Shown one piece after another: positions 28,935 through 58,679 of a DNA stretch of 64,000 nt. This DNA is from Squalus acanthias. Its lineage: Eukaryota. The DNA is taken from contig CM059432.1 of the NCBI GenBank assembly GCA_030390025.1, forward strand, positions 60,266,001 through 60,330,000, in the 5' to 3' direction. A model generated the notes under the pieces. The model was not told the origin of the DNA, did not search any database, and worked only from the letters and a program-made list of their open reading frames with translations. A program made the position numbers and the translations under genes. Each line of letters starts with the position of its first letter. Within the stretch, counting starts at the first letter, position 1.

Positions 28935-30633
28935 TGAGTGTCCTGGAATATTTAGTTCCCACCCTTGGCCACTTTGCAACCACGTCTCCGTTATGGCTAT
29001 TAGATCAAACCTGTTAATTTCTATCTACGCTATTAATTCAACTATTTTGTTGCGACTGCTTCGCGCATTCAGATATAGTGCCTTTAGCTTTGACTTATTT
29101 CTGTTTCTCCCTGATGTCACCTTAGTCACTGATGCCCTATTACCTTTGTTACTCTCTCTGTCCCTTCCTGACCCACTCTGCTTATTTTTACCCAAAACTC
29201 TACTCTGCTCTAGAGCCTTGACATTTCTCTCACTGCTTTTAAATTTACTCTTTCCTGAATCCTCCCACCACCCCCTTCATTAGTTTAAAGCCCTGTCTAC
29301 TGCCCTAGTTATTCGGTTCGCCAGGACACTGATCCCAGCCCGGTTTAAGTAGAGCCCGTTCCAACGGAACAGCTCCCTCTTTCGCCAGTACTGGTGCCAG
29401 TGCCCGATGAACTGAAACCCCTTCCTCCCACAGGTAAAACGGATTGCCAATTTGCCATTTGCTTTTGCGCTACCACCAACTTCTCCATCAAAGATTCGGC
29501 TTAACACAACTATGTTGATAGCCATAGGCAATTTTATAACATTTTGGTAAATCAACAATAATTAACAAAAAGTTACAGGCTTCTAGTAGTCTCAATCTAC
29601 CAAAAATTGAAAAACTGTTGGGGAAGAGCAGAGGAAGCTTCACTCAGTAATCTGCATCTAACCTGTGCTTATGCTGACACTAGGTGCTCAAAATGGAAAA
29701 GTGTTTCATTTTGCAGGGCCAGCATTCTTCACCTTGATGAGCATAAAATTAACCACATTTTTTTTTAATTGAAAGGTTTTCCGTCCGTAAAATCAAATCT
29801 TATATCCTGTTACTATATACATTATAGCTGATAGTACCTTGGCAATACACTTTCGTTTTAGTTCACTTTACCAAGAAGAGCTAAATGGTCCAGACTATGC
29901 ATCATTGTCTTTTGAACTGTATGCAACATTACACACAGTACATCTTGTTGTTTAAAGGTGGAGTGTATAAAGTTACTTACAGTCTAACTGTGGATGGACT
30001 GTAATATTCATATTTTTACTTAAAGAAATACTATCTTCACATGAAAAAAGTGTTTGGTAAATACTTTATCATTTGGGAAGTGAGAACAGCTAGAAGAGAC
30101 AATGGGCTCGAATTTCATCGGGCCGTTGAGGCGGGATTGGAGGCGTGTGGGTGGTTAAAATTGCAAAAACTGGTGGGCGGGCCCAACCCCGCCTCCATCC
30201 CGCCTCCAAGCAATTTTCATTAAATCGTGTCTACTAGTCCCGTCTCCGTCCCGCCTCCAAGAGGCGGGATAGGCCGTTAAGGCCCTTAACAAGCACTAAA
30301 TTGCCTCTATAATGCCATTTTGATAGGCCTTTGTGATTTTAACCCTTTTCCCACGTGAAGCACGCCTGTTCTGAAACACGACGGTGAAACCTGGCGGTAG
30401 CACAATTGGATTGCTGACTATCAGCTGCAGCTCAACCATTAAATAGGAGATTTGATCAGCCATCATTTGCAGGTGGCAGGACTTTGCTGTCTCAGGTCTG
30501 GGGGAACTTTTAGAAGGCATAACCACAGCTGTGGAAGTTTGGAGCCTGACACCCATCTCCAGTGCGACCTCCTGGGAAACCCCTCTTGCCACCTTGACTG
30601 AGCGCTTCCTCAACTGAGGCATATACCAGAAGC

Positions 30634-31890
30634 ATGGGAGCCATTTATTTCCTTACCTTCTGGACATCAGATGAAGATGAAGACCAGCCGCGGCACCAGC
30701 AGAACCATGAACAACAGCAGCACCAACAGCAGCAGCACCAACAGCAGCAGCAACAACAGGAGCGCCAAGCTGCTGCTCACCCACCTGAAGCTGCACAGGC
30801 CAGAAGGGGCCAGCGCATGGAAGCCTGTCGGCGCAGGAGATACCCCCCAAACAGGGTCTACAGACACAGGGTCAGCTACCTCAACATGTCTGAGCAGCAG
30901 TGCCAATGGCGGCTCCGACTTTCGCGAGAGGTAGTGGGTGACATCTGCGCAATGCTGCAACAAGACCTAGAGCCCAGAGGACCAGGTGGACAACCCTTAC
31001 CAGTGGCCGTCAAAGTCACCACCGCACTCAACTTTTTTGCCTCAGGCTCATTCCAGGGATCAGCAGCAGACATCAGCGGCATCTCCCAGGCGGCCGCACA
31101 CACTTGCATCATGCAGGTAACGGATGCCCTCTTTGCCATCGCGCACAATCACATCCATTTCACCAAGGATTAAGCAAGTGTCACGGCGCGTGCGGTTGGA
31201 TTAGCTAATCTGGCAGGCTTTCCAAGGGTGCAGGGCGTCGTTGACTGCACACATGTGGCCCTAAGGCACTCCATTGCAATCCAGGTATTTTTGTCAACCG
31301 CAAGGGCTTCCACTCCCTTAACGTTCAGCTGTTGTGTGAACACAAGAAGGAAATTTTGCATGTTTGTGCCAAGTACCCTGGCAGTTGCCATGACTCCTTC
31401 ATACTGCGCCAGTCTAGTGTGCCTCCGCTATTTAGTCCGGCAGACCAACATAACGGATGGCTACTTGGAGACAAGGGCTGTCCCCTGAAGACGTGGCTAA
31501 TGACGCCGTTGAGGAGCCCATCCAACGAAGCTGAGGAGAGCTACAACTCCAGCCACATGTTCACCAGAGCCATAATCGAGCAAACCATCGGTTTGCTGAA
31601 GATGCGCTTCAGATGCCTGGATAGATCAGGTGGAGCTCTGCAGTACTCAGCAGCCAGGGTCTCCAGAATCGTCGTAGTTTGCTGTGCACTTCACAACATG
31701 GCACAGCGTCATGGCTTGCAGATTCCTCAGGACCAAGTGGCTCGTCACATATCCTCCTAAGATGAGGAAGAGGAGGAGGAGAGCGAAAACGAACATCTTG
31801 CAGAGGCCCATCAACCAGGGGCAGCAGTACGCGAGAACATTGCTGCCCGGGTTGCAAGGAACGCACTCATCTTGGCCAGATTTGCTTAGC
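30634..31890 (+). pseudogene. Harbinger (HARBI1-like DDE) transposase with stops and a frameshift
   Basis: [59 protein letters not shown]. Confidence 0.95.
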
Positions 31891-32145
31891 CTAGCCAATC
31901 AAGCACTTTTGCCTCGCAGCTTCTTACCTGAGCATCGACAATGGCCAAGAACCAGCGGATTCCTAGCAATTTGAACACCATACTGACAATTGCAAGTTAT
32001 CCTAAGCCCTCAATGTGGAAGTCCCATTCGCGAAATGACACACGCCACAACTACAGCAGTAGCCATCAGATTTTTTATTTACAGTAATCATCTGATGGTT
32101 TTTTAACATAAAACATCAAAATTCCCCAAATGACTACCCTTGTGA

Positions 32146-34759
32146 CTATTTGTGCACTATCTTTCTCTTATGCGTGCTCCTACGTGGTGCTTCCCCTGTG
32201 GCTTCAGCAGATGTGGAGGCCCCTTGCTCACTTTCTTGCTGCTCCTGTCTCGACACCTTTGGCGGGCATCCTCTGGGGTTGTGAACCTGTGAGGGCTCGC
32301 CAACAGTCTGCTGCTCCTGCGGCTGTGCAGGGGTTGAGACGCCGATCTCAGTTGGGTGCGGACTCTGGTGGGGCTTTGACCGAGGACTTGTCAGTGGCAT
32401 GGAAGTGTGAGCGCTTGGAGAGGAGCCCCCACTTTCTTGTTCTCTGCAAACAACATCCCTCTCATGGGTCAGGTCCATCTCAGCGCTTGCAGGTGGATTG
32501 AGAGCACCTTGCTGACATCAGTGGGGCCATGGGGACCCATATCTGCACTGGAAGTCCTACTCAGAAGGACTTCCATGAAGGTCTGGTTTCTGTGTTCAAT
32601 AGATGACCATCGCTCCTCCAGAGATGTCATTCTATTCTGAACACTCACCATGTTTTCTGCACTCTGGCGACTTATCTCCTCCATGGCCGCAGCCATCCTC
32701 TCGTCTACTGTAGCCATCCTTTCGACGGAGATTGCCATCATTTGCATGGAGGTTGCCATCCTTTCTGTGGTGATGCGTTCATGCGCCAATGACTCCACAA
32801 AGGCTCTGCTCATGTTCGCAATGGACTCCTCCATTCGCTCCACACTCGCAACGACCCTGGAGACAAAACCTGCCAGAGACTCCTGCATCTGTTCCTGGAG
32901 TTCCAGCACTGCTGATCTTATGGATGGACCCAGAGGCAGAGGGTCGACATGCAGCTGAGCCGAGCTGGGAGAGTCCTGTGCCCGCCGACTAGGACTCTCC
33001 ACTGCTGTCCCTGTTTCCACTATCTGCTGATGCTCACTTGTGAGCTGTGATACACCAGGTGACAACACTACTCTATCTCGCGATGTTCCCTTCGAGCTGT
33101 GAGTGTCTGCGCTGGTGCTGGGTGCGCTGAATTCTGCTGACGCTGCGCCCTCAGAGGTTGCAGCTTACTCTGAGGAGTCTTGAGGCTCATGCTCTTCCTC
33201 CTGCAAGTGGGGACGGGTGCTTGCGATGGTCCTGGGGGGGAGTAAAGGAAAGAGTCAGAGATGTGAGGCCAAGGTTACATGCACATTGCATATTGCAGAT
33301 GATCATAAGTCCATCTGTTAGAGCTTCAGAATCATTATCAGCGACTCATGCAATGTCATTGAGAGAGATGGAAAACTATTCTGTCACCAGCTTGCTGTGA
33401 TGCGCCCGTCTGTCCGTCCCCCACTTGGGAATCTTCCTCCACTCCCACCATCTCCAGGACCGCCTCCTACCAGGTGGTGAGCTGGGCTACTGAGGATGGC
33501 CCTCCTCCTGTCCACGCTCTTTCCCTCTTATTGTGAGCTCTCTTTTCCTGCAATGAGGGAGACAAGTGGAGTTTGAGTGAGAATGAAGGAGTGAGTGTAG
33601 AGAATCCATAGCATAGATGCTTAGGAGACAAAGATGGAGTGAGGTGGCAAGACCAAGGGCCCTCCTTGTGTGTTGTAAGTTGTAATTGCATCACAGTGAT
33701 AGGGAGTGTGAGGGCTGCATAGTTGAATAGTTAGGTGAATGTGACCATAGAGAGAGAGGGAATGGGTAAGGGTGCATGGATGTCAGTGTCAAGTGGGATG
33801 TGGAGGAAGAGATTGCTAAAGCTGAGTGCTGGTGAGGAGAGGCAATGGGGATCAGATTGAGGGTGATGGGAAAGTCATACTCACTTTTCCAGTGCGCAGA
33901 AGGTCATGAAGCCTCTTCCTGCACTGAAGCCAGGTTCTGCGGGTTATTGACAAAGAGTTGACCTCTGCCACCTGGATCCACACAGCCTTGGTTTGCTGGG
34001 GAGGCTTCTTCCTCTTTACGATAGCAAAATACTGCGGATGCTGGAAATCAGAAATAACAACAGAAAACGCTGGAAAAACTCAGCAGGCCAGGCAACATCC
34101 GTGGAGAGAGAAAGACAGTTAATGTTTCAGGTCGAAACCCTTTGTCGGAACTGAGAGAGCAAGAAATAAACAGATAAAAATGCAAGGGGGAGGCTGGGGG
34201 GAGGAATAAAAGAACAAAAGGGATGGTCTTTAGTGAGTAGAGACATTGAGAGATGCTCAAGGCAAGACGAGATGGTAATGGGACAGGTTGAGAAACAAAA
34301 GGTAAGGTGTGAAATGCTGGCAGAATCAGAGACAGCTGCCGTGGGGGGAGAGAGAGAAAAAAAGGAAAAAGGCACGGACCAAAAGAGTGGATAAAATGTA
34401 TACATATGTGGTAGGGGCCGGGGTTATGATCTGAAATTGTTGAACTCGATATTGAGTCCGGAAGGCTGTAAAGTGCCTAAACGGAAGATGAGGTGCTGTT
34501 GCTGGAGCTTACGCTGCGCTTCCGTGGAACAATGCAAGAGGCCGAGGACGGTGAGGTCTGAGTGAGCGTGGAGGGGTGAATTAAAATGACAAGCGACCGG
34601 AAGCTCGGGGTCACCCTTCCGGACTGAACGGAGGTGTTCCGCAAAGCGGTCACCCAATCTGCGTTTGGTCTCCCCTTTGTTTGCTCTTGCTCCCTCTACT
34701 AAAGCCTGCAGGGCAACGTCATCAAAGTGGGGTGCAGACCTAGGTCTCTGGCTGGCCAT
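32146..34759 (-). pseudogene. Harbinger Myb/SANT-like gene (3 exons) interrupted by Penelope
   Basis: Exon 1 MASQRPRSAPHFDD... and RTWLQCRKRLHDL|gtgagt; exon 2 EKRAHNKRERAWTGGG; exon 3 homologous to 352-1391. Confidence 0.85.
34020..34679 (-). mobile_element. Penelope-like element 3' fragment (partial GIY-YIG endonuclease plus pLTR)
   Basis: GETKRRLGDRFAEHLRSV...PVACHFN...LGTLQPSGLN; degenerate hammerhead at about 34116-34153. Confidence 0.9.
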
Positions 34760-35439
34760 TCTTCCTGCAGGTGCCTCGAACATGCAAGGGCAAAAGCTTG
34801 GCAGTCTGCAGAAGAAGCAAGGCTTGTTGCAGACCTTAAATGCAGCAGCAATGATGACGTCATCGGAGGCGACTTTCAGACTGGAAAAACTCACTAGCCA
34901 TGGGTTCCCACACGTTGGAACTCAATTGGCCAATTAGGTTAAAATGGCATCATTCTCCCACATCGATTTAGAATCGGGTGGCTAACACGAAATGCGGATT
35001 ACACGACCCCAGCCCGCCCCAGTATCAAAATCCAGCTCAATGTAATTTTCAGCACACTGGTACCATACTAAGGGAGATAACAATGCGTTGAGAAGTAGAA
35101 AAAAGTTGTTACGAAGTGACCTAGCGTGTGCTTGGCGGCTGTACATCTGATGTGAACATGCGTACTGGCCACCTCTATGGTGTAAATGGGGACCATCTGA
35201 GGGATTCAGGCCGGGACCGAAACCTGGACCCCCAAAGAGGAGGCAGGTATTGCATTTAAAAAAAATTTTTAGACTGTCTCCCTTGCCAAGGGGGCTGCTT
35301 GATGTAGCATCAAGTAGTTTCCTGGGGGTTGTCCCAACACACTCCTCCTAGCCTGGGCACCAACACCATAATTTATGGCCTGTTGCACAAAGTGGCTCCC
35401 CTTAGTGGTGCAGGTGCTCACTGGGGTTATGTAAATTAG

Positions 35440-42787: not shown

Positions 42788-44607
42788 GGGCTGGATTTTA
42801 CAAACCTCGGCGGGTCCGTGGCGGGCGACGCGGTGGCGGGTCTCCATTCTGGTCTCCGAAATGAATTTCCCCTGGTTGGGTTTGTTAAGCCTGCCCTGCG
42901 AGGTTCCCGGACAATTAGAGGAAGCGGGCCTGGTGACGTCATTTGATGACGCGTCATCAGCCGGTTTCCTTAAAGGGACCATGGCCAACTTTCTTTTGAT
43001 ATTTGTGCTGTCAGTATTCTACAGCATTGAGGTGCAGCAAACACTGACAAGCACTGCACAGAGGTGCACTGCTGCACCCAGGCTCTCCCATGACTCCCTC
43101 CATATGCTTATGGAGGGAGTCATAGCACACAGTGAGGTCCTCTTCCCTTCCAATGGGCAGAAGAGATCTCTCTGGGAGATCAACACAGCCTGGTTGCACA
43201 TTGCAGAGGAGGGCACAAGCAGGGAGATGTGGTCAGGAGCAACTGGGTGCAGTGCCGCAAATGTTTCAATGATCTCAGTAGATCACGAAACGTTAGTACA
43301 AAGCCACACTCAACCTCATCCTGCTGTGCCTCTCATTACATCCCCATCACTCTGTCTTTCGTACCCTACTCCTGTACATCCTTACTCACACCAACTTACC
43401 TTGCACCTCTACCCATCCCTCTCTATCTACATTATCACACCCCATCTCACTAGCCACCCCTCACACTCACCTGCATCCTAGTGCAATCATGCCAACTAAC
43501 AACACACAAGGGTAGGCACTTGGATGTTTTATGCAATGTTCATGTAAAGTTTCTGTTAATGTGGTGTCAAACATTGAAACCTTTATTTTCAACACTTTTC
43601 ATTCTTGGACAGATTTGTGTGCACCTTTGGAAGTGGCTTAGTGAGTTGCAGTGAATGGTGAGACATAATGGTACCCCACCCCCCCACCCCCGCAATTGTG
43701 ATGAGGGTGAAAGGAATGGCTTGGGCATTGTAGGAATGCTTTATGGTGTTGGTGTGGGGTGGTGCCAACCTGACGCATCATGTGGCAGCCAGGGTGTACA
43801 GCATCAAATGAAGTAAATCTAGCCATGGTGAGGCCATCCCTGGCCTCCCGGGCAGCAATGTGCTCGGGTGCTGAAGCCCTGTGTCCTGTGCAGCATCAGT
43901 TGATTGCGGAGAAGGTCGGTGTTGTTGTTGGTGCTGCTGGTGTGCCTGGTGCTGCTGGTGTGCCTGGTGATGCTGGTGTGCCTGGTGATGCTGGTGTGTC
44001 TGGTGATGCTGGTGTTGGGGCTGATCTTGGTGGGATTCTGAGGGCCAAGGTAAGAGAGTTTCAAGGGCACCCATGCTGATGGAATAGATGGCAGGTGAAG
44101 TAGAAATTACAGCAGCGATCTGTCACTGGTGGGAGAGGTAATGAGGTCAGACTGGATGGAGATTTGTGTAAAGACTTGCAGCATTCTGAATCTGTAGTGG
44201 AAATGCTGTTTAGAGAAGCTAGTGGTTAAGGGAACATTTCTCAATCAGCTGGGAGCTTTCACTTGACATTTGAAGCTGTCAACTCATCAGCTGATTCAAT
44301 GGCCACTGACCTTCCGCCTCAGCTTCATAGATGAAGTCTAGGCACAGTGGGAAACCAGTGGGTGACCTGTCAAATTCAAAAAGCTGGGAAAAAAGCAATG
44401 TGAAGTGGCTGTAAACAAGCCACTATGATTTGAATTGCCTCCCCCGCCGCTGCGTGTCAGGTCTGCTCAGCGCTGACAGACCTGACATTTGGTAAAGGCG
44501 CGTGGTGGCGGGTTCACAGCGGGATCCCGACCCGCTGGGGGAAAAAAACACCTTCCCACCCGACCCGCCACCGATCGCGCCTGCAGACCCCCCGCAAAAT
44601 CCAGCCC
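42788..44607. mobile_element. Internally deleted Harbinger
   Basis: TIRs GGGCTGGATTTT / AAAATCCAGCCC. Myb exon-1 remnant (WVQCRKCFNDL) on +, QH-rich transposase N-terminal remnant on -. TSD not evident. Confidence 0.8.
43936..44015. repeat. 18-bp tandem repeat (GCTGGTGTGCCTGGTGAT), about 4.5 copies
   Basis: Directly visible; encodes HQAHQH units on the minus strand. Confidence 0.9.
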
Positions 44608-45058: not shown

Positions 45059-46900
45059 ATGATGGCTACTCAGAGGCCCAGGGAGAGAGCTCGCCGGTTT
45101 AGCGACCAGGCATTGGTGGCTCTGGTTGGCGCTATGGAACGGCGACGGGCAATGCTGTTTCCAGAGAGTGGCAGGAGGCCATTGCCCCGGGAGTTTGCAA
45201 GGGTGTGGAGGGAGCTTGCCTAGCACGTTTCATCCAGGAGCCTGGTCCAAAAGACACATACAAAGTGCCATAAGAAGTTCAACAACCTCACTCGGGTGGT
45301 CAGGGTGAGTACATGCTTGAAAAACCTCTACATCCCACCATCTCAACCTCACTCTGTGCACAGACGGTGTAAATACCAAAATCATCAACACTCACCCATC
45401 TCATAAAAGTCACATGCACATCCCACACCTTGCACACATTAACGGCTATTCAACTATGGTAGGCACATGTGCCAAACACATGGCTGCGCACTCACTCACA
45501 CGCTGTCCTTTTTCTTGCAGGCCAAGCTTTCACATAACCGGAGGGAGCAACAATGGATGGGAGGAGGACAGGCGGAGCTGCACCCCCTCACATAATTGGA
45601 GGAGAGAGTCCACAGACTCATTGCCAGTCATGTCGTCAGCACTGTGGCCGTTGGAGAGGTCGACCCCTTGGGGACAGCAACTGTATGTTCATCAGCTTTC
45701 TCTCCTCTCTCACACCATTTCCCTCTCACAACACCAGCCTTTTACACTTTCCATCTAACTATACTGTCTCCAGTCCTTGCTCCCTTCCTGCCCCCCTGCC
45801 CTCACGTTAAAGCCACTCTTGTACCTTCCTGCTTTCAGATAGTGAGCCACCAGCTGACCAGCCTGGCCCTCAGCCTCCCAGTGGCAGCGACGCGCCAGAG
45901 GAGGAGGAAGAGGAAGCCGGAGCCTCATCGCCTGCGCCTCCCGCGGGTGACATTTCCGACACTGGGGCCACGCGTTCCCTGGAGGGGAGCAGGGGGTTTG
46001 CATCTGATGTGGGTGAAGCTCCAGGACCCAGCGGGCTGCAGCAATGCCATGGGGGAAGGGAAGCTCGGGGGCCATCTCCCCGGAGGGTGAGTACACGCGC
46101 GAATTCTGCTGCACAGGACTCGGATGAGGACCTCGATATAGCGGCCATGAATACTCAGGCTCTGAGCATGCATACGGAGCTCATGGGTGCAATGGCAAGG
46201 GTGCCCGACAGCATGGATGCACTGGCTAGGAGCGTGGGGGAGTCCGCCACCAGCTGTCATCTGTGCGCAAACCCTTGAACCCATTCTTGCCTCGTTGCAG
46301 AGGATGATTGAATTGCAGGAAGACCGTGTGGACTTAGAGCCCATGCCGCGTGTAATGGGTCAGGTGGCAGGATCTATTGCAGCACAGGCCGAGGCAACGC
46401 AATGGCTTAGTGTTGCAATCGAGTCATTGGCTGGTGCCATCCAGTGTCAGACTGCCCTCATGCAGTCTCAGATTGAAGTCACACAAGCGCTCACTGCTGC
46501 CATCGTCGCTGGGTCGCCCACTGTCCACCGGGGATCTCACGGTGCCGCAGCAGGCCAGCAATCTGTGATCGAGCAGATTGCTCCGGATGCTGAGGTACTG
46601 CCCCGGGGGAATGGCAGTGTGTTGGTCGAGCAGGAAGGTGCTGTCCTCTCTCAGGATGGCAGCATTCCTGCTCCCACCACTGCCACTCTGCCATTGCACG
46701 TGCCACAGCCTGTAACACAGCCAGCCCAGAGCTGGTCGAGGGCATCCTTCAAGGCCATCTGCAGTCTCTGGCTCCAACATTCAGCAGCCTTCCCCCAGCC
46801 TTGCTGTAGCCACTAGGGCCACATTACGGAGGAGCAGTAGGGTGGGAAGGTGGGAAGGGGAAGGGGGGAAGTGTGCAGGGGATGGAGAACATCCTCAAAG
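45059..46900 (+). pseudogene. Harbinger Myb/SANT-like gene (3 exons, premature stops)
   Basis: MATQRPRERARRFSDQAL...KCHKKFNNL|gtgagt; exon 2 cag|AKLSHNRREQQWMGGG; exon 3 from about 45839. Confidence 0.85.
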
Positions 46901-47229
46901 GGCGAATAACGAAAAATTCTACAACAAATGGGGGGAATGTTTGTCCCAAATTGGATGTTTACGTTAATATATTGTTCACTCTATTTACGCTTATCTCGAT
47001 GTGGTAAGAACCAGTTTTGTTAGTTAATGAATTGTTGTTGTATTTGTTTGTTATTGGTTGCGCAGAATAAATAAGACACAGTTTGTCAGATAAATACATT
47101 TTTTATTGGAACTTCACAACTTTGCTCATTTGACTCATTGGAGCTTTGCCCGGCAATAGGGGCTGTGGGATGGTTGTGATGATGTGCTTGTTCATCCCAA
47201 AAGCCATCTTCTCTGTCGTTCATCAGAAG

Positions 47230-48315
47230 CGGTGTCTTATCAGGCATTCACGGACGGCCCTTGCAGAGGCAATATTGAGCGCCTCCCTCCCACGTTGCTG
47301 CTGCTCATCCTCCTCTTCACCCTACTCTCCCTCTTCCTCCTCCTGAGGTGGTGCACCAATCCCTGGTGGCAATGGCTGGGTCCTCATAATTGCAAGGTTG
47401 TGAAGCATGCAGCACACAACAATGAAAAGCGAGACTCGCTCGGGAGAGTACTGCAGGGCTCCTCCAAGGTGGCCAAGACACCGGAACCGTTGCTTCAAGA
47501 TGTCGATCGTCTGCTCACTGAGGTTCCTGGTGGCGCTGTGGCTCTCACTGTAGGCGAGCTCAGCAGGAGTGTTGGGGTTACGGAGCGGTGTCATCAGCCA
47601 GGTGCAGTGTGGATAACCCTTGTCCCCGAGCAGCCAGCCACGAGGTTGGCGCAGTGGTTGGAACAGGTCTGGGACACCAGTCTGGTGCAGAATGAAAGCA
47701 TCGTGGCTGCTGCCAGGATAGCGGGCATTAACGGCGAGGATGCGCTGTCTGTGGTTGCAAACCAACTAGACATTGAGAGAATGGAAGTCTTTGCGGTTGC
47801 AGAAAACCTTTGTATTTTCATGAGGTCCCCGCAATGTCACATGCGTGCAGTCAACGGCGCCCTGAATCATGGGGAAGTCCGCTATCCTAGGTCATGGGGA
47901 AAGAGATGTACTCCCTTCTCCTTTTGTAGAGAACATTTGTGACCACACGGATGCAACAATGGATGGCGAACTGGGAGATATTCACTATGTCCCCAGTTGA
48001 AGCCTGGAAGGAGCCACTGGCATAGAAATTCAGAGCCACCGTCACCTTCACTGCCACCAACAGAGACGTCCTGGTCCTGAGCTGAGGCTGCAGATCTGGT
48101 TGCAGGAGGTGGCAGAAGCGCAGCCTTCTGAAAAACTGCTCCTCGGACAAATGAATGTAGAATTGCTCCCGGAATACCCTGGGAGGGTAAGGTCTCCTGT
48201 GCAGAGGCCTGTTGGCCCTCCTCCCTCTAGCCACGCTAGCCACTCTCTATCTGCGCCTCTGCTGCCTCCGAAGGTGAAGCTGGAGGACGACGCCCTGAGC
48301 GAGTACAGCCCCCAT
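47230..48315 (-). pseudogene. Harbinger (HARBI1-like) transposase, disrupted
   Basis: ALNFYASGSFQ, RYPGSSHDAFIL, WLLGDKGY, EQTIDILKQRFRCL, CCMLHN. Confidence 0.95.
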
Positions 48316-49028
48316 TTAATCTTGTAAATGTGGTAAATATAAAGCTCACCGAAATGGGAACCTGAAAAGAGTTGCTCAGGAACAAAACTCCTTGTAGGAC
48401 AGTGTTAAATGTCTCCAGGCGCCTCTCTCCCTCTCTCAACCTGTGTATGCAGAATATTTTGCCGACAGGAAAAAGCCGGAAGCGCACGCCTTTAAATAGC
48501 GCTCTCCTAGCTCCTTGCCGACTGCAAAATGTCCCCCTCTACCTGTCGTTCCTAGTGGCAGGCGCTAAGGCAGGGATCGAGAATCAATTTCCGGTGCAGG
48601 GCGCTACTGGGGCGTTGCTCGCTTCGATGACGTCAAGATCTCCGGGTGCAGGAGATCGTGACAGTAGTGTTTAGCGCCACCGCAAAGCGCCAGGTCAATT
48701 TCACGGGCGGCGCTAAAATCGCCGTGCTCGGGGAGTAAGTCGTTAGCGGCCCGTTAGCGCCCCCCGGAGGCATTAATGGGAGGCGCTAACCAACCCAATT
48801 TTTCCCCCTTAAGTTACACCACACCACTAGCATTCCATTTTACTTAGAAGGCTACATTCACAAATGATATTACTGAGTAAAAGAAAGTGCTTCTGTATTC
48901 ACTTGACACAATTGTTTCAGGATTTGCCGAGGCCATATCTTACTTGCAAACATCATTCATATAATGATGCCATCTGCTGAGCACTGTGGCAAGTGGCATG
49001 CATATACAGGTCCAGCACAGAAACTTAC

Positions 49029-49142
49029 CTGATCATCAATCAACTGATTTTCCATGTCTTTCTGTTCTTTCTTCAGATTTTCAGTTATCAATTGCTGGTT
49101 CGCTTTGAGTTCATTTAGTTCCCTGCTCAACATCAAGAATAT
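49029..49142 (-). CDS. ccdc178: Coiled-coil host gene exon (CCDC178-like), 114 nt, phase 0->0
   Basis: ttcttgtag|ATA TTC...GAT CAG|gtaagt encodes IFLMLSRELNELKANQQLITENLKKEQKDMENQLIDDQ. Confidence 0.75.
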
Positions 49143-49815
49143 CTACAAGAAATTGCAGAAAAAGGAAACTAGTTATTTAAGGATGTTGAATTTTATATGT
49201 TGTTATACAAGCATCACTTGCTTCTGTCATGAAAATGTGCTTCAAATGTAAATCAGTGCTTTTGTTTCTAAAAAGGAAGTATTTTCTACAGCAATTTTTG
49301 GGAAATACTATTTTTGGCCTTCAATTAAGCTTATTTTATCTAACGTTAAAGCACACAAAATAAAGTGTTGTCTGTAAATGGCTTTATCCAAGATTTTTTT
49401 TTAAAGTGAGATTTTTATTTTCCACTGATTCATAAGGACTGATAATGCAATGCATGGTACCCATAGCTCCGTTGTCCATCGGGCAGCATGTGCCCAAATT
49501 GTCAAGCACTAAAGCCTGAGGCTTGCTCAGGCTTTCATTTGCCCGGAATTCTACAATGCAACCCAGAAGTACCTGTGGTGCTCAGAATTAGCTCACCTCC
49601 CATACACTAAGCTCATTATGGCCCTGTTTTATTATGAAAATGAGAGGTTCCTGTAATTCAGCTGGAATGCCTCAGTGACACTTCAGATACACTGTGCCTA
49701 TTTGGAACGAACACTTCAGCGGAGGCCAGAACCAGAAAGGAACATATTGTCTTCCGGCTGGCCCTTCTTTTTAATAGGGTCACCCATCTGTCTGCCGCTT
49801 TATTTCTTTGCCCTC

Positions 49816-51541
49816 TGTAAGGGGTGACCTGCGGCTCTGTGCTTAGCCTGGGTGCTAGTGCGGGGTTAGGCCTTGTTGCCTACTCTGGTCTCCAGCCAGC
49901 CTGATAACACTAGACACCTGTGAGTGGTTCGACCCACTCGCCCTTACGGTTCTGACACTGGACTTAGGTGCGAGAGCAATAATGCAGAGAAAGACTCAGG
50001 TAGACCCGGTTGAATAGTGCGAAATGGAAAATCTTTATTGCATATTATTCAAGATTACGAGATACATGTCATAAGCACAGATTAACGACAGTACAATCTT
50101 ACACACAGTTATGTAACTAATTTTAGGGAAACGAGGAGCGCATGACACATCGTAAAAGGGGACACACATTATACTTATCCTTAAAACTTAAACCCTCCCC
50201 TATCAATACCTGTCCTAATCTAGATTTGTAGGATCGAGACTCATGCTCACCACTCGTGATAACTCGGAGAATTCCGAAACTCTGCTCGGATGTTTTTACC
50301 GCAGCACCTGACTATCCACGTGCTGATCAGGGGTCTCTGTACCCCACTTGTTTACTCGTTTCTGCTCCGGCTAGCAGGCTGGACCGTCTGCTGTCATGAA
50401 GATCTGTGTTGTCCTCGGAGTTCCGATACTACTCAAAGAAGAGTCTTCCTGTGCCCTCACACCGGTTCGATAAAACTCGAAGAAGGGTCTTCCTGGGCAA
50501 GGAAGTGTTTATTCGACTTACAGGCGCGGTCGGGGCTTACTGACCGTGGCGATACGTATTGTCGTCTTCTTCTCTTCTCATCTCATCTCATCTCATCTCA
50601 TCTCCTCTCGGGGCTTCGGTTCCAACACCGTTTACCGACTTCTCGGGATGGTGCGCCCGTTTCAAGGCCTCACAGCCCAGTTCTCCACAGATCTTCGCGG
50701 CAAGCCACGAGGTTGATCCTAGCGGATCAGAGTCCAGAGCCGTCAGGCAAGAGAATAAAAGTTCAACAGCCTTCCAGCGAGTCAAAGCAGCAAGCGCAAG
50801 AAGAAGCAGAGGCAGCAGTCAGCAGCAAGAGAATAAAAGTTCAGCAGCCTTCCAGCGAGTCAAAGCAGCAAGAGCAAGAAGAAGCAGAGACAGCAGTCAG
50901 CAGCAAGAGAAAGATGGACGGTTGTACCTTACAGTTATAGTGCTGTAATTCCTCTTTTCCCGCCCAATCTTAATGTCTATCTTTTGTCAGGGTTTTGGCG
51001 CTCAAACTTCTTGTATAGGGTGATCTCCGTCTTTAATGGGTTTCGGTGATACTTGTAACTGTCTGAGTACCCGTTAATACTTCTCCCATTGTGGAACCGG
51101 CTAGTAGTCTCCCTGGAGGGGTTTTGGGGCTTCCAAATACTTTCTGTAACTACCCGCAAACGGCTCTCTCATCGTAGAGTCGTGGGGATTTTGCATATTA
51201 ATGTCTTTGGATGGGTCCTTGATCGCTCGGTACAATAGCCCTTATTCGCACCTGGGAGACCGATTCTAGTATTTATGTATAAAATGCAAACCCATCATGT
51301 CTTGTCAATTATCTCAAATGTGCTGAGTCCTGTACGATCTTGCACAAATGTTTATTGGAACGCCATCTTGTCTGCCCATTGAAAGTCTCGAACTTTCTGC
51401 CACGAGGCGTGGCGGCCATTTTACAGGCTGTTTGTGTCCGTTTTGAAACATGACAGCATTCTGCTGAAATAAAACTGTTTGTACGAAACTTTATGTCTCC
51501 TTCTTATTTTATAAAATCGCGATAATTTTGCGAATTCTACA
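49816..51541. mobile_element. Solo LTR, 1726 bp (Gypsy or ERV)
   Basis: TGTA...TACA termini, 4-bp TSD CCTC (49812-49815, 51542-51545), CpG-rich, AATAAA near both ends, no gag/pol. Confidence 0.8.
50748..50910. repeat. 78-bp tandem duplication inside the LTR
   Basis: CAAGAGA unit starts at 50748, 50826 and 50904. Confidence 0.9.
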
Positions 51542-52336
51542 CCTCCAATGGAGATTTAATGAAAAGACCTGTTATGCCCTAATTTATTCTTTGCAGGTAA
51601 AAATGATGGCAATATACAAGCATTAGCAACCCTTCCATTGCTGCTGTCACTCAGAATTGCAACTCCACAGAACCTCCAACATCATGCTCTAGGCACTGGG
51701 AACACTGGGAGCACCACTAAAATATTTAAATGGCCCCACCTCGCATTACCAGATTATTGGTCCCATAGTACTGTGCAAAAAAAAAGCAAACTACAATTGT
51801 AGATGTTTCACAATTTCTAAGTTTCTCATGCAAATTTATTTCTGTAGTGCCTTTGGAAAGTAATAGCAGTGCTTATGGCTTAAGTAAAGATTGTAGTAGT
51901 ATCTCAGGGATAATAGCTGTGAACTCTATGGGAGAAACGAGTGGCAGTTTCAGAGAAAATTATTAACAGAGTTTTGAGCAGGATAAGGTTAGCACTAGTT
52001 CAAAGCAAGCTCTATTAGAAGATAAGTGGTTAGCATTAGGTACTTCCTAGGTTTTGCATAGGACCAGTCAGCGGGCAGAGGTCCCACCCTACTGCACTTC
52101 TGGTGGTACAGCAGCCGGCCAGGAATTCTGGGGCTCTGGTCTTAATGACCTAGTGCATGAATGGTGTCCAAGTGCCTCAGGCATGTCTGAGTAAGTTCTT
52201 ATGCAGAGTGTGCAATGGATGATTAGAAGGCCTCAGGATCCCATAATGCCTAAGTGCTACCATGAGCCAAGGCTGACACCTTGCCTGTTCCTGCAGATCA
52301 GACTTTCCAAACGTTGCTGTGCAGGTTTCAAATGTG

Positions 52337-52780
52337 CCAGCCTTAGCTTGTGGTAGCACACTCACCTCTGAGTTAGAAGGTTGTGGGCTGAAGCCCCAAT
52401 CAAAGAGATTTCAGCACATAATCTAGCTTGGCACTTCTATGCGGTATTAAGGGAGTGCTGCACTGGTGGAGGTGCCATCTTTCGGATGAGACATTAAACC
52501 GAGGCCCTCTCAGATGGACATAAAAGATCCCACTGCATTATCTGAGGAAGAGCAGGGGAGTTGTCCTGGCCAACATTTATCCCTCAACCAACACCTAAAA
52601 CAGATGATCTGGACATTTATTTAATTGCTGTTTGTGGGAGTTTGCTGTGCGCAAAGTGGCTACCACGTTTCCTACATTACAACAGTGGCTATATTTCAAA
52701 AGTACTTCACCGGCTGTAAAGCACTTTGGGACGTCCTTAGGTCCTGACAGACGTTATGTGAATGCAAGTCTTTTCTTTCT
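52337..52780 (+). mobile_element. Deu-domain tRNA SINE
   Basis: Collinear copy of 62563-63020. Confidence 0.85.
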
Positions 52781-53534
52781 TTAATCAGCATTGCCGGAGA
52801 GAGCATGGCAAGAAACCCTCAAGAATTGATAGGAGAGTCAATTTCATCAAATATGTACATAATATGAGGCTTGCACTGGTCACTAACATGGCCTCCAAAA
52901 AATTGAGTTTTCTTTGCTGCAAAATATAGCCAACAGCAAATCGGGCACTTTATCCTGTGCACTTGATTTCACACCTCACGCTCACATCTGGCGACGCTTC
53001 ATGCTGCCAGTGGAGTCTTGTAATATTGTTCTTTGAATATTTATATTTTAGGCCTTTCTTCATTTGTGGCTCACTTTAGCAACATCTTCATCCTCGACAA
53101 AACATCTAAAAATAATGATACCAGTACTAATAAGTCTGCAAAAATGTCACTCTCTCTCCTTCAGCTGTTTATTTTTCTCTCCTCTCTTGAATTATTTCTC
53201 CCCCTTTCCCCACTCTCTCCATCCTTTCTACTTCTATCTCGCATCTTCCACTTCCACGAGATTTTCTCTTCTATGCCACTTCTGTTTCTTACAGAACACT
53301 ACTGCTGTCTCCCTCACTTTTACCTTTCTTTTCTCCTCCTTTTCTTCTCATTCTTTTGTTATCTTTCTTCAGTTCTTGTTTTCTCATTCTCAATGTCTCA
53401 CCTTCCTCTTTCACTTCCTACTCTCTAGCATTCCCCTTTGTTATCTACTGCTCTCACACTCATTTTGCTCTCTCTCGTTCACATTTTCATGGGCCAAGAA
53501 GTACTTAGGCAGGCAGATAAGCTGAAAAGCTATG

Positions 53535-53907
53535 TCGTTGGTTCCTATGTGGACCATGACAACTGGATCCTCCCCTTCCACTCAAAGTTCTTCTCCAGCC
53601 GCGAGGAGATGTCTTTAACCCGGCACCGGGCAGGCAACACAACCTTCGGAACTCTCGGTCGCAGCTGTAGAGAGCAGTATCTATCCCCCTGACTATACTG
53701 TCCCCTACCACAACTGCATTCCCTTTCACTCCCCCCACTTGAATGGCCTCCTGCACCATGATGCCATGGTCAGCTTGTGCATCCATCCTGCAGGCTTTTT
53801 CCTCCTCCACACAGGCAGCAAGAACCTCATACCTGTTGGACAAGGGCAAAGGCTGAGGCTCCTCCAGCACTGCACCTAGGGTTCCTTTACCTGCCTGAGT
53901 TGCAGTC
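53535..53907 (-). mobile_element. CR1 ORF1 fragment
   Basis: Closely matches 3020-3410 (VVGDSIVRG, CLPGA). Confidence 0.85.
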
Positions 53908-53909
53908 AG

Positions 53910-54935
53910 ATCAGAATTTTTCTTCAATTTCAGAGCTGCATAAGCTATAAGAAGACAGTGATCCAAGTTGCCATACAAAGCACTTCTCAAGACTCGGACA
54001 TTATCAACTACACGTCAACGAGTGGTTGTAATAACATGGTCTACTTCCTTTTTGGTAGTTCCATCTTTGCTGTACCATGTGTATCTGTGAATGTATTTTC
54101 TGGGAAAGAAAGTGCCCCCTATCTTGAGGTCATGGGCAGCACAGATGTCAACAAGTTGCTCACCATTGTCATTTTGTTGCCCAATACCATATGCTCCAAT
54201 GGTCTTAGTCAAGTTTCATCTGTCAGCTCCTACTTCAGCATTAAAGTCTCCCAATAGGAAAAGCAGATCCCGCTGGGGTACTAAGGTGATGGCTGCCTGG
54301 AGACATCTATAGAACTTGTTTTTATCATTGGAGTCGGACACATTTGTCAGAGGATATGTTACTATTACTGATAAATACCCATGTTTATGAATAAAATGAG
54401 CTGAAAGAAGGCATTCATTTTTTGGGTTCCAACTGACAAGCATTTTGGTTCTCTGGTACACCTTGGTCACACCTCCTTGCGCTGCACAGCGAGAAACGAC
54501 CAGTGAAAAAGCACAGAGCTATGTTACCAGGTTCGACCCAGGTGGACAGGTCTGTGCTGAGCTGGTAATGGCTGATGTGACTCTTGTTTACTGATTCATT
54601 ACAATATTAGGAGAAGGCCAAATGGCTAATTCTGTAATTGTTCTCATCAGTACAATGGGTTACGGGATCCCCAAAGCTATCTGCCACATAGGGCCAACCA
54701 TCCAATTAACTGGTACAAGTGGTTGCTGAACCTATCAGTAGAAATCAATCCGGATGGATTGCTACAGATGCACGACCCTCTTGACTTTACCTACGACGCA
54801 AGAGTTGAATGCAGATAGGCACATGGAACAGTCAGATGCTCTGCCATACAGGGTCGGTGACCTTTCTGTTGCGAGAATTCACATGTCTAGCAGGCCTTAC
54901 CGAGGTTAGGTGGACTGGGCAGGGCTCTTCGGTGA
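53910..54935. mobile_element. RTE-clade LINE endonuclease fragment with inverted 5' part
   Basis: Minus strand: LLGDFNAEVG, NDNGEQL, HRYTWYSKDG, EVDHV. Plus strand 54809-54930: IGTWN...GLTEVRWTGQG. Confidence 0.75.
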
Positions 54936-55477
54936 CTGCTGCAAGGGGAATTAGATCAAATCTCATCCCTGAATTGTTCACTTCTGTTTAACACAGTCTA
55001 ACTTTGACACCATAGACTTACCTCCTTCTCCCTAGCTTCAAATAAAGGAACCAACTTCCAATTCAGTACCCATCCAGAAGCATGAGAACACATCAGTCCT
55101 CTTTGCCCCTACAGGACCATGTCAATAATCATCACCTGATTGAATAAGTCAACATCAAATAAGTACACGCTTTCCTGTATGATTCTAACTCCATGAATAA
55201 CAAAGCACAACATAAGTGCACATTCTAAGTCCAAAGTGAATACGAACCAACTTAATCTTTCCTAACACCATTATTCCCCAGGGTGGCTACATGTGCCTTT
55301 CTTTCACCTAGTCTAGTGCTTCTTCTGGTAGACTGCTCAATTTCAACAAAATGGTCTTTTGGATTGAGCGGCCCTCCTCTCATGGCAGGTTGTTGCTGCT
55401 GGTTGCATATCTGGAGCTTGTTCCTAGACCACTGGTATGGTGCTCCAAGGACTGATGTTGCTTCAAATGAGAGCTAT

Positions 55478-55975
55478 GGGCTGGATTTTGTCTTGGGGTC
55501 GGGTTGGGGTCGTGTAATCCACATTTCGGGCTGGATTTTGAATGACCCATGGAGTCGGGTTTGGAGGCGTGTGGGGGGTTAAATTTGCGGGGTCGGGGTT
55601 TCCGACCCCATCCCAACTCCATCCCGCCTCCACGCAATTTTGACAAAATCGGTCGCGGGGTTCCCGACTCCGTCCCGCCTCCAAGAGGTGGGAGAGGCCA
55701 TTAAAGCCCTTAACAAGCTCTAAATTGGCTCTGTAATGCCATTTTGAAACGTTTTAGCTAGTTTAACCCTTTTCTGACGTGAGGACGCCTGGTGTGAAAC
55801 ACTCCAGTGAAACCTGGCGGGAGCACAAGTGGATAGCTGACTATCAGCTGCAGGTCCACTATTACAACAGAGATGTGATGAAGGTAGTAGTATTAGGTCT
55901 GAAAGTCGCCGCTGCTGCATTGAATGTGTTAAGAGACTGCCTGGCCTTTGCTGTGAGAGGACTTAGATGCAAAAA

Positions 55976-56010
<35 letters not shown>

Positions 56011-56938
56011 CTCCCCATATATTTTGCATCCAGGTCCACTCACATCAAAAGCAAGCCAGGCAGGTCCTCTCTCACCAACAGTCTCTGAGACTCGGCAGTC
56101 AGCAATGATGACATCATCAGAGGCGACTTTCAGACTGAAACCACTAATTGGTTCATGGGTTCCCACATGCTGGAACTCAATTGCCCAATTAAGTGAAAAT
56201 TGCATCATTCATCCACATTAATCTGGAGTCGGGGGGGAAACACAAAATGCGGATTACACAACCCCAACCCGACCCCAAGACAAAATCCAGCCCTTCGTGT
56301 TTCCCCCCCGACTCCAGATTAATGTGGATGCCTGATGCAATTTTCACTTAATTGGGCAATTGAGTTGCAGCATGTGGGAACCCATGAACTAATTAGTGGT
56401 TTCAGTCTGAAAGTCGCCTCGCCTCTGATGATGTCATCATTGCTGGCTGAGAGAGAGAGAGAGAGAGAGAGAATGAATTTTTTTTGCATCCAAGTCCTCT
56501 CACAGCAAAGGCCAGGCAGTCTCTGAACACATTCAATGCAGCAGCATCAGAGGCGACTTTCAGACCTAATACTACTACTACCTTCATCACATCTCCGTTG
56601 TAATAGTGCACCTGCAGCTCATAGTCAGCTATCCACTTGTGCTCCCGCCAGGTTTCACTGGAGTGTTTCACACCAGGCGTACTTCACGTCAGAAAAGGGT
56701 TAAACTAGCTAAAACGTTTCAAAATGGCATTACAGACCCAATTTAGGGCTTGTTAAGGGCTTTAATGGCCTCTCCCGCCTCTTGGAGGCGGGACGGAGTC
56801 GGGAACCCCGCGACTGATTTTGTCAAAATTGCGTGGAGGCGGGATGGAGTCGGGATGGGGTCGGAAACACCGACCCCGCAAATTTAACCCCCCACACGCC
56901 TCCAAACCCGACTCCATGGGTCATTCAAAATCCAGCCC
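55478..56938. mobile_element. Harbinger MITE (outer copy) containing an inverted sister copy
   Basis: GGGCTGGATTTTG TIRs at 55478 and 56938. 55478-55527 plus 56297-56938 rebuild the reverse complement of the inner copy. Confidence 0.9.
55528..56293. mobile_element. Harbinger MITE (inner copy), related to 30104-35038
   Basis: TIRs GGGCTGGATTTTG / CAAAATCCAGCCC, TTC TSD. Left part resembles 30104-30450 and right part 34845-35038. Confidence 0.9.
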
Positions 56939-58517
56939 ATAGATTCAAGAGTCACAGCTGTCAGTTGCTGCACATCATCGGAGACTGACCTCAGATGCAC
57001 ATACATACAATGTTCCTCAAACATCTTTCTTTGCAGACAAGTGCCCATGAGTGGCAATTTTCTCCTCCGCCTCCTCTGGGAAGATGTCATATCTTCAACA
57101 ATGTCTCACTCCTCTAGCTCTCTCATACTCTGTGAATTACTAATACTATCCAATTCCCCTCGGTGCAAGTATCTGAGCTGGTTCATGTATGTGAGAAAGC
57201 AAATGGTACAGAGGTGACATTGAAGGAGTTGGGGGCAGTACATGGGGCAGTATCATGCTCCAGGAACTCCTGTGTGACCTGGTCCTCATCATCCTATTCC
57301 TCACCATCATTGTCATGGTCAATGTAGCAGAAAGACAGATAGCACCCTGCATACGGGCAGAATGACCCAGAAAATTCTCGTGTAAATACCTTTCCAGATC
57401 ATCGGTGGTCACAATTAATTTTCCATTGGCGTAAAAGTGTAGCGACTCATCAGATAGAATTTTTAGGCCAATAGATAAGTGCTAGATGCAAGGCTTTTAA
57501 ATATATAGATAAATAGATGTAACTGCTATGGTGTCAGAAGTCAGTCTGCTTTGTAGCAATGAGTAAATTCTTCATTCCACCCCAACTTAGTATTGATATA
57601 TTACAAATAATAACTTACAAGACTTTGCCTCTTAAATCTCCTTCCCAAATAAAAGATGAATTAAAAAAACGCACACGATTTTGCTGGCCTATTTTGGCTG
57701 CATGCAATAATACTTATTTCTAAACTTTGGTACATAATGCTGTATATTTTATTTCATCAAAATTAATAGCTGTAGTAGTTAATACATCTGCAGTCACTGA
57801 CCAATAGTTATTCTCTATACCTGTCAGTACTTTTCGATGTTGCATAACAAGGACATCCTAAAAAAAATCACAGTTTACAACATTTGTGGACTTTATATTT
57901 AATACCATAATTATTCTAGGTTGCCAAATAACCATTCTGTCACTTTTAAAATTGTGAAATGTACGAGAATACATTATGATATATGACTTTTACCACGCCT
58001 TCCAGGACTCAAAGTAACTAATGATAGCAACGTTGCCACGGTTTTTGTTGTTCTTGCCACATTGGAGGGCTATCAACATCTTTCACTGACATCAAAGCAT
58101 TGTTTTAAAATCATATCTATTATGAACATTGGGCTACTTAGTTCAGTACATTAATACAGCAGTACTGCCTATAAATATACTGTCACAATATTTCCTGTCT
58201 CAAGAACCAAATGACAAATTGAATCCACCTTGACAGCCCATCCTCCAGATACATCTACTGCTGTATACGATATGATCACTTCAAAGCATTTTTGGCAATT
58301 GAAACTGTTCAGATTTTTTTTAGTACAATACTTTGAAAATAAAAGTTCTGTGAAATCACCTGTGAACTCCAACACTTACAGTTAGGAGAGTCATGCAGCT
58401 ATATTCAAAATTGATGATTTTTATAAAATGAAAATGATTCTTTACTATAAATTCAATGGGATGCTTCCCCCCATGACTTGTCAAATAATCTTGACTAAAA
58501 TTCTCCAGGAAACTTAC

Positions 58518-58679
58518 TTCATAGTGGTTCTGGTATATGGCTTCAAATCCTTTAAATTTGGCTTCAATATCTTCAACAATTTTCTCAGCTTGTGTAACCT
58601 TCTTTAAAACACTTTCTTTCTTGTTATTGGCATTTTCTGTAAAGCGAGCCAGTTCTTCAGCCTCTAATTTAGCTTTGGC
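58518..58679 (-). CDS. ccdc178: Coiled-coil host gene exon (CCDC178-like), 162 nt, phase 0->0
   Basis: cag|GCC AAA GCT...TAT GAA|gtaagt encodes AKAKLEAEELARFTENANNKKESVLKKV...YQNHYE. Confidence 0.8.

What the first reader, a model, noticed from the sequence alone, without database searches (positions are those of the whole stretch)
55478..56938. MITE inserted in reverse into its own sister copy, making a ~1.46-kb hairpin
Seen: a 766-bp Harbinger MITE (55528-56293, TTC TSD) sits 50 bp inside the terminus of a near-identical copy in opposite orientation. This gives inverted arms of roughly 650-700 bp around a short spacer, and four TIRs. Inference: local re-insertion at its own subterminal region. 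Inside a transcribed intron it should form long dsRNA (ADAR substrate or siRNA source), and the composite could move as a unit.
Basis: partly seen in the sequence, partly recalled or inferred. Interest (0 to 1): 0.7.

Follow-up and report, generated by a model that had tools for sequence, protein, structure and literature searches.

The report
Shark mini-transposon landed inside its kin
A small cut-and-paste jumping element sits back-to-front inside a 97%-identical relative in a shark gene intron, likely because the family carries its own preferred landing sequence near one end; the resulting long RNA hairpin is only predicted, and such nesting is known behaviour.

Summary
The structure is real. 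A 766-bp Harbinger-type MITE (55528-56293, TTC duplication) sits 50 bp inside a 692-bp relative in opposite orientation (96.7% identical), in a 9.4-kb intron of shark CCDC178. A decayed full-length Harbinger of the same lineage lies at 30104-35038.

'Local re-insertion' is poorly supported. The host carries variants shared with other genomic copies that the inner copy lacks, so the inner is unlikely to be its daughter. The insertion base is the best or joint-best match in the host to the family's landing motif under 3 of 4 read-derived spellings. Read contigs show the same junction at about 5-6 times single-copy depth in a second sample, and a diverged junction class at about 4-5 times in the first. 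This points to a modest, recurrent hotspot. Multiplication of a composite is not excluded.

Two related species appear to lack the host copy. A hairpin of about 630 bp is predicted, but editing and small RNA could not be tested.

Nested MITE multimers, Harbinger target motifs and ADAR editing of repeat duplexes are all known. This is an ordinary but clean example.

The parts
55478..55524 (-). Host MITE, terminal 47 bp of its right end, with 13-bp TIR (55478-55490) and two GGGGTCG(G/T)G boxes (55495, 55506)
   Evidence: (I5: 96% complementary to 56245-56293)
55525..55527 (+). Target-site duplication, copy 1 (TTC); centre of the landing-motif match in the host
55528..56293 (+). Inner MITE, complete, 766 bp, 13-bp TIRs at 55528-55540 and 56281-56293
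56006..56095 (+). About 90 bp present in the inner copy and missing in the host; loops out of the predicted duplex; part of it is an internal inverted copy of 55937-55974
   Evidence: 90-nt gap; I9
56247..56293 (+). 47-nt central loop of the predicted hairpin (= inner copy's own right end)
   Evidence: (I2)
56294..56296 (+). Target-site duplication, copy 2 (TTC)
56297..56938 (-). Host MITE, main body and left end (TIR 56926-56938)
55475..55477 (+). Left flank of the host (TAT); contigs of two related species stop matching exactly at 55477
56939..56941 (+). Right flank of the host (ATA); not a direct repeat of the left flank (2-bp AT, or a 3-bp duplication that lost one base)
49143..58517 (-). 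CCDC178 intron holding the composite (1,579 nt after the donor, about 6.3 kb before the acceptor); flanking exons 58518-58679 and about 49020-49142
30104..35038 (+). Decayed full-length Harbinger of the same lineage: AAT duplication, DDE transposase on +, Myb/SANT-like exon on -, ends 83-85% identical to the MITE

Best explanation
A non-autonomous Harbinger element, likely mobilised in trans and likely coming from another locus, inserted in reverse orientation into an earlier copy of its own family, likely because the base 50 bp from the family's right end matches the transposase's landing motif. Order of events: (1) the host copy entered the CCDC178 intron, likely after the split from organisms C and D; (2) a copy of a slightly different sub-lineage inserted at the motif-like site and duplicated TTC; (3) both decayed in place. 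The same site has likely been hit at several other loci. The hairpin is a by-product of orientation: when the intron is transcribed it would form about 630 bp of duplex that ADAR would probably edit like any inverted repeat pair, with no function implied. Shown: nesting, duplication, lineage, intron position, motif rank, multi-copy junction depth. Inferred: transposase preference, independence of the other junctions, timing, RNA fate.
For: Motif: flank consensuses of family ends in reads read GAGACAC/CAGACAC/AAACAC + 3 bases before the TIR and AAT GTGTCTC behind it (20 contigs, X5), close to the Harbinger3_DR target AAACACCWGGTCTTT (PMC3016246, passage). The insertion site scores 10 of 13 on RRACAC-NWN-GTGTYY, the only site of 678 in the host at that score; 0.15% of window positions reach it. 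Under four fixed spellings it is best or joint best in 3 of 4 (ties of 3, 1 and 2 sites) and joint second in 1. Recurrence: X5 record 14 matches 56272-56321 exactly, all 20 of its 20 31-mers cross the junction, depth 141 against 21-29 for flank contigs, i.e. 5-6x. X1 record 2 (56281-56343, 4 other letters, 1 gap, depth 65 against 13-15) is a diverged junction class that an intact end cannot explain (at least 9 mismatches) and starts exactly at the 13-bp TIR common to both ends. Different parents: of 18 usable differences polarised on the 30104-35038 element, 9 are host-derived, 7 inner-derived, 2 open; an intact copy in X1 (record 4) carries the host's two-base variant and no other letter reaches 5% there in any run. 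Random expectation for hits at one base is 0.002-1.7 for assumed copy numbers of 5,000-100,000 and genomes of 3-6 Gb.
Against: The degenerate motif was written after seeing the site; on the published zebrafish motif the site scores 9 of 15, below one other host site and level with 4 more. One half-site matches only 3 of 6 (2 of 6 before a CpG change seen in this host). Neither junction contig has 31 letters on both sides (22/28 and 13/50), the tool's own bar for bridging. Depth is not a copy number, and multi-copy depth of the exact 50-mer would also arise if a composite had multiplied. The TIR in X1 record 2 could belong to another family with the same 13 bp. With 100,000 copies, one or two hits are expected without any preference. 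No whole genome was held, so no locus-by-locus count exists.
Confidence: 0.72

Rival explanations
1. The nested composite moved as one unit (host right end plus host left end) and multiplied, so the several copies of the junction descend from one nesting event.
For: Exact 50-nt junction at 5-6x single-copy depth in X5. All four TIRs are intact and two subterminal boxes remain between the outer TIR and the insertion.
Against: A second junction class with different host letters exists (X1 record 2). The 50 exact bases look like family consensus on both sides, so independent events would share them. The composite has no clean 3-bp duplication. The one joint with TIR + GAA + terminal piece has single-copy depth (13.5). 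The insertion separates a third box (56315) from the outer TIR.
Confidence: 0.12
2. Local hop: the inner copy is a daughter of the host (e.g. excised from the sister chromatid and reinserted into the neighbouring copy).
For: 96.7% identity; similar numbers of derived changes in both copies (9 and 7 of 18).
Against: 626 of 1455 contigs laid in X1 are 99% or more alike to the junction stretch, so high identity is normal for this family. The host's variant at 56331-56332 is shared with un-nested copies but absent from the inner copy, which has the outgroup state. The host lacks 90 bp that the inner has.
Confidence: 0.07
3. Chance nesting in a very abundant family, with no preference for this base.
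For: Expected random hits at a given base reach about 1-2 if there are 100,000 copies (copy number and genome size assumed).
Against: About 5 or more junction-equivalents in each of two samples, in two sequence classes; the site tops the motif ranking.
Confidence: 0.07
4. Assembly or fold-back read artefact.
For: Long inverted repeats are prone to it (own knowledge). No listed contig spans the whole structure.
Against: Arms differ by 22 substitutions and 6 indels; a perfect 3-bp duplication at a site where other copies have TTC once; exact junction contig in a second sample; flank-to-TIR contigs at single-copy depth in both samples (24 and 25 letters into the element).
Confidence: 0.02

Closest known systems
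MITE multimers / self-insertions of Tourist-like (PIF/Harbinger) MITEs in rice and maize (Jiang & Wessler 2001, seen only as cited in a passage of PMC5172404; the primary paper is not held)
   Same: A MITE nested in a copy of its own family; the passage says over 10% of 6,600 rice MITEs are multimers, that Castaway and Gaijin self-insert often, and that multimers arose from independent insertions.
   Different: Shark rather than plant; here the base is pinned to a palindromic landing-motif match 50 bp from the end, with read evidence of repeated use.
Harbinger3_DR / Harbinger3N_DR of zebrafish (PMC3016246 and PMC2836001, passages)
   Same: 3-bp duplication, extended palindromic target (AAACAC...GTCTTT against AGACAC...GTGTCT here), DDE transposase plus Myb-like protein in the full-length relative.
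   Different: Central triplet here is loose (TTC, AAT) rather than CWG; self-insertion was not in the passages read.
Double Ds of maize (PMC3260210, one passage; the reversed nesting of double Ds is recalled, not from a call)
   Same: One element inside another of the same family, leaving left and right ends in direct orientation (55478 with 55528; 56293 with 56938), the arrangement that can break chromosomes.
   Different: hAT rather than Harbinger; no breakage or joint movement shown here; insertion is subterminal.
Palindromic Harbinger repeats of Xenopus tropicalis as ADAR substrates (PMC5625713, passages and section 5)
   Same: Harbinger-derived intramolecular duplex with a short loop; the same table lists 200,171 unique hyper-edited sites in elephant shark brain, 81% in repeats.
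   Different: Frog repeats are ~200-bp self-palindromes with measured editing; here the duplex is ~630 bp, made by nesting, and editing was not measured.

Membership tests
Non-autonomous PIF/Harbinger element (MITE) | Short TIRs at both ends | tested here: met
   13-bp TIRs on both copies
Non-autonomous PIF/Harbinger element (MITE) | 3-bp target-site duplication | tested here: met
   Inner copy TTC/TTC; full-length relative AAT/AAT. The host copy fails this: TAT/ATA.
Non-autonomous PIF/Harbinger element (MITE) | Ends related to an element coding a DDE transposase and a Myb/SANT-like protein | tested here: met
   30104-35038: DDE_Tnp_4 E 8.5e-32; Myb_DNA-bind_5 E 4.5e-4, 20.5 bits, just under the 21.7 cut-off; ends 283/341 and 164/194 identical to the MITE
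Non-autonomous PIF/Harbinger element (MITE) | Small, non-coding, high copy number | tested here: met
   766 and 692 bp; no ORF of 120 aa or more in 55478-56938; 1455 contigs laid on 100 bases in X1; exact copy number not obtained
Non-autonomous PIF/Harbinger element (MITE) | Extended target-sequence preference | tested here: met
   Flank consensuses (20-96 contigs each, overall agreement 0.39-0.44, motif at the element-proximal end)
Non-autonomous PIF/Harbinger element (MITE) | Mobilised in trans by the two proteins | not testable with these tools
   Needs an excision/insertion assay
MITE multimer by independent self-insertion | Inner copy with own duplication inside a same-family copy | tested here: met
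MITE multimer by independent self-insertion | Multimers at different loci arose separately | tested here: inconclusive
   Two junction classes and one ambiguous joint; loci not resolved
Double-Ds-like mobile composite | Composite found at several loci, each with its own duplication | tested here: inconclusive
   No genome held; junction depth 5-6x fits either reading; no clean outer duplication here
Double-Ds-like mobile composite | Transposase-dependent chromosome breakage | not testable with these tools
   Needs genetics or a cell assay
ADAR substrate / endo-siRNA locus | Long near-perfect duplex in a transcribed region | tested here: met
   In silico only: -1257 kcal/mol, stacks of 69, 60, 53, 53, 46 bp on the transcribed strand against at most 14-17 bp for either copy alone; inside a CCDC178 intron
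ADAR substrate / endo-siRNA locus | A-to-G clusters in RNA reads or 21-23-nt RNAs | not testable with these tools
   Only DNA-type contig sets could be laid

The most novel reading that the evidence does not exclude
The family carries a landing pad 50 bp inside its own end that it keeps hitting, and reverse-nested doubles made this way have become mobile units that multiplied, spreading ready-made ~630-bp hairpins that both trigger RNA silencing of the whole family and act as double-Ds-like chromosome breakers in sharks.
Probability: 0.1. Interest if true: 0.6.

Novelty: new member of a known kind. Interest (0 to 1): 0.27.

Why it matters
It matters modestly. It shows how an extended target motif makes a MITE family insert into itself at one base and so create very long, short-looped hairpins in vertebrate introns. 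If a census showed orientation bias or loss of reverse-nested copies from genes, it would measure selection against long dsRNA or double-ended breakage. If composites moved as units, it would be a natural vertebrate double-Ds analogue. As it stands, every component is known.

Tried and rejected
Whole-genome search and file: no genome held, so no census of copies or junctions. Sequencing-run search: no RNA holder listed; editing and small RNA untested. Rfam at gathering threshold on 54000-58500: 0 matches. Earlier findings near the place and by sequence: none. Left nested junction (55527/55528): no bridging piece among the 32 of 9,160 pieces shown; a hole proves nothing. X7 and X9 laid only 11 and 9 records on the right junction stretch, none bridging among those listed. 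The joint 56293-GAA-56247 (X1, depth 13.5) was first read as a same-orientation insertion elsewhere; since both ends share 13 bp it may instead be an opposite-orientation left junction such as this locus's own, so it is not counted as proof. The host's duplication could not be settled: TAT and ATA readings give the same half-site scores, 3 and 3 of 6, and the relatives' empty-site letters were not displayed. Seven edge rows of the right-end alignment (R1-R7 of 25 rows) were misaligned and dropped before counting. Summed contig depth (up to 7e5-1.5e6 against 13) was not used as a copy number. Effects on splicing by exon looping were rejected because both arms lie in one intron. Pfam gave nothing for the 54-aa exon or for window:47322-47762 read on + (that ORF is on the - strand, so this was no test). 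Literature: eight searches listed no paper on self-nesting of shark Harbinger MITEs; the library lacks most subscription journals and no supplements were opened, so this is no claim of absence.

Full report
Observation. The inner element runs 55528-56293 (766 bp) between two TTC triplets; removing it and one TTC restores a 692-bp copy in the opposite orientation whose terminus lies 50 bp to the left. The two copies differ at 22 of 676 aligned bases (96.7%) and by 6 indels, among them 90 bp missing from the host. There are four copies of a 13-bp TIR. The host arm is 645 nt and the inner arm 719 nt, so about 630 bp can pair around a 47-nt loop with one 90-nt bulge. One point was missed: the host has no clean 3-bp duplication (TAT left, ATA right).

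Identity of the element. A 4.9-kb element at 30104-35038 has an AAT duplication, a broken DDE transposase on + (DDE_Tnp_4, E 8.5e-32) and a Myb/SANT-like exon on - (E 4.5e-4, just under the cut-off). Its ends match the MITE at 283 of 341 and 164 of 194 bases. The MITE is therefore a non-autonomous member of a Harbinger lineage; the two-protein make-up, 3-bp duplication and extended target preference are the superfamily's marks (PMC2836001, passages).

Setting. The exon at 58518-58679 (- strand) matches shark CCDC178 (9 hits among 53 candidates, best 78% identity), and five exons map in order on the minus strand. The composite lies in the intron 58517-49143, 1,579 nt after the donor and about 6.3 kb before the acceptor. 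Both arms are in this one intron. That CCDC178 is testis-biased is recalled from mammals and was not tested.

Is it real, and how old? No genome was held, so contigs of public runs were laid. In two samples of organism A, single-copy contigs run from the left flank 24 and 25 letters into the host TIR (X1 55281-55501, depth 14.7; X5 55294-55502, depth 27.1); this is under the tool's 31-letter bar but matches the junction with no other letter. In organisms C and D, single-copy contigs of 3,743 and 928 letters match the flank up to exactly 55477 and go on with other sequence, as an empty site would; their flank differs at 26 of 827 and 25 of 826 letters. Both insertions therefore likely postdate a 3% split; perfect excision in the relatives is a less likely alternative. 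Other family copies read through the nesting site with TTC once. An artefact is unlikely, since fold-back errors give identical arms and no duplication.

Why this base? Loose-end consensuses beside family termini show GAGACAC, CAGACAC or AAACAC plus three bases before the TIR (20, 96 and 47 contigs) and AAT GTGTCTC after it (20 contigs), close to the zebrafish Harbinger3_DR target AAACACCWGGTCTTT (PMC3016246, passage). The restored host site, CCACAT TTC GTGTTT, scores 10 of 13 on RRACAC-NWN-GTGTYY, alone at the top of 678 host positions; 0.15% of window positions do as well. That spelling was chosen after seeing the site, so four fixed spellings were tried: best or joint best in three, joint second in one. 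On the zebrafish motif it scores 9 of 15, behind one site and level with four. A CpG change in this host (intact copies read CCGCAT) adds one match.

Recurrence. On 56247-56346, X5 gives a 50-letter contig identical to 56272-56321, all 20 of whose 31-mers cross the junction, at depth 141 against 21-29 for flank contigs (5-6x). X1 gives a 64-letter contig over 56281-56343 with 4 other letters and 1 gap at depth 65 against 13-15; an intact end would need at least 9 mismatches, and the contig starts exactly at the 13 bp shared by both ends, as expected if different elements or orientations sit upstream. Neither contig has 31 letters on both sides, depth is not a copy number, and only 32 of 2,155 pieces were shown. 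A further joint (TIR, GAA, terminal piece; depth 13.5) is either a same-orientation insertion elsewhere or a left junction like this one. Random insertion would give 0.002-1.7 hits at one base for assumed 5,000-100,000 copies and 3-6 Gb, so about 5-10 junction-equivalents point to a modest hotspot. The data do not exclude that some are copies of one composite.

Local hop? With the full-length element as outgroup, 18 usable differences split 9 host-derived, 7 inner-derived, 2 open (7 misaligned edge rows of 25 dropped). Five of the 7 inner changes are CpG decay; 7 of the 9 host changes are transversions, which look like sub-lineage marks. One of them, the two bases at 56331-56332, is carried by an un-nested copy in X1 (record 4, 1 other letter over 56294-56344), and no other letter reaches 5% there in any run, while the inner copy has the outgroup state. 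A daughter of the host should carry it. With 626 of 1,455 contigs 99% or more alike, 96.7% is no sign of direct descent.

RNA. On the transcribed strand the composite folds at -1257 kcal/mol with stacks of 69, 60, 53, 53 and 46 bp, against at most 14-17 bp for either copy alone (plus strand -1253). Such duplexes are the usual ADAR substrates; palindromic Harbinger repeats are the most edited family in Xenopus tropicalis, and elephant shark brain shows 200,171 unique hyper-edited sites, 81% in repeats (PMC5625713, passages and section 5). Editing of this intron is thus a likely but untested and unremarkable consequence. siRNA production is speculation.

Comparison and verdict. Self-insertion and multimers of Tourist-like MITEs are documented in plants and described as independent insertions (PMC5172404, passage). 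Nested Ds elements are known chromosome breakers (PMC3260210, passage); the end arrangement here is similar, but nothing shows such activity. Earlier notes of this scan report motif-driven Harbinger hotspots inside other MITEs of this genome; they are unchecked leads of the same kind. The finding is a real, well-preserved new member of a known kind, interest 0.27. The open and more interesting reading, a composite that multiplied as a unit, has about a 10% chance and can be settled by a genome census.

Noticed in passing
window 30104-35038: Decayed full-length Harbinger (AAT duplication, transposase with in-frame stop, Myb/SANT-like gene on the opposite strand) inside a CCDC178 intron, interrupted at about 34020-34680 by a piece that looks like a Penelope-type retroelement end (recalled resemblance, not tested).
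   Followed up: partly
window 1-1400 and 32137-33598: A second Harbinger Myb-like gene region at the window start, 74% identical to that of the 30104-35038 element.
   Followed up: no
window 42788-44607 and 45300-47950: Further Harbinger-type termini with the same first 12 TIR bases (42788 +, 44607 -, 37601 -) and a transposase-like ORF at 47322-47765 (-): several Harbinger families share this TIR, any of which could supply the junctions seen in reads.
   Followed up: no
window 55470-55477 and 56939-56946: The host's flanks extend its inverted repeat by 4 bases (CTAT / ATAG) instead of forming a direct 3-bp repeat; fits a palindromic CTATAG site with a 2-bp duplication or a lost base.
   Followed up: partly
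window 55937-56059: Internal hairpin of the inner copy (38-nt arms, 82%, around the (CT)n tract); the host lacks one arm through the 90-bp deletion next to the microsatellite.
   Followed up: no
window 2397/2401-2849, 26500-27097, 28984-29432: Older Harbinger-like ends abut LINE fragments (1815-2398 matches 26500-27097 at 82%; 2401-2849 matches 28984-29432 at 94%), suggesting further nested insertions.
   Followed up: no
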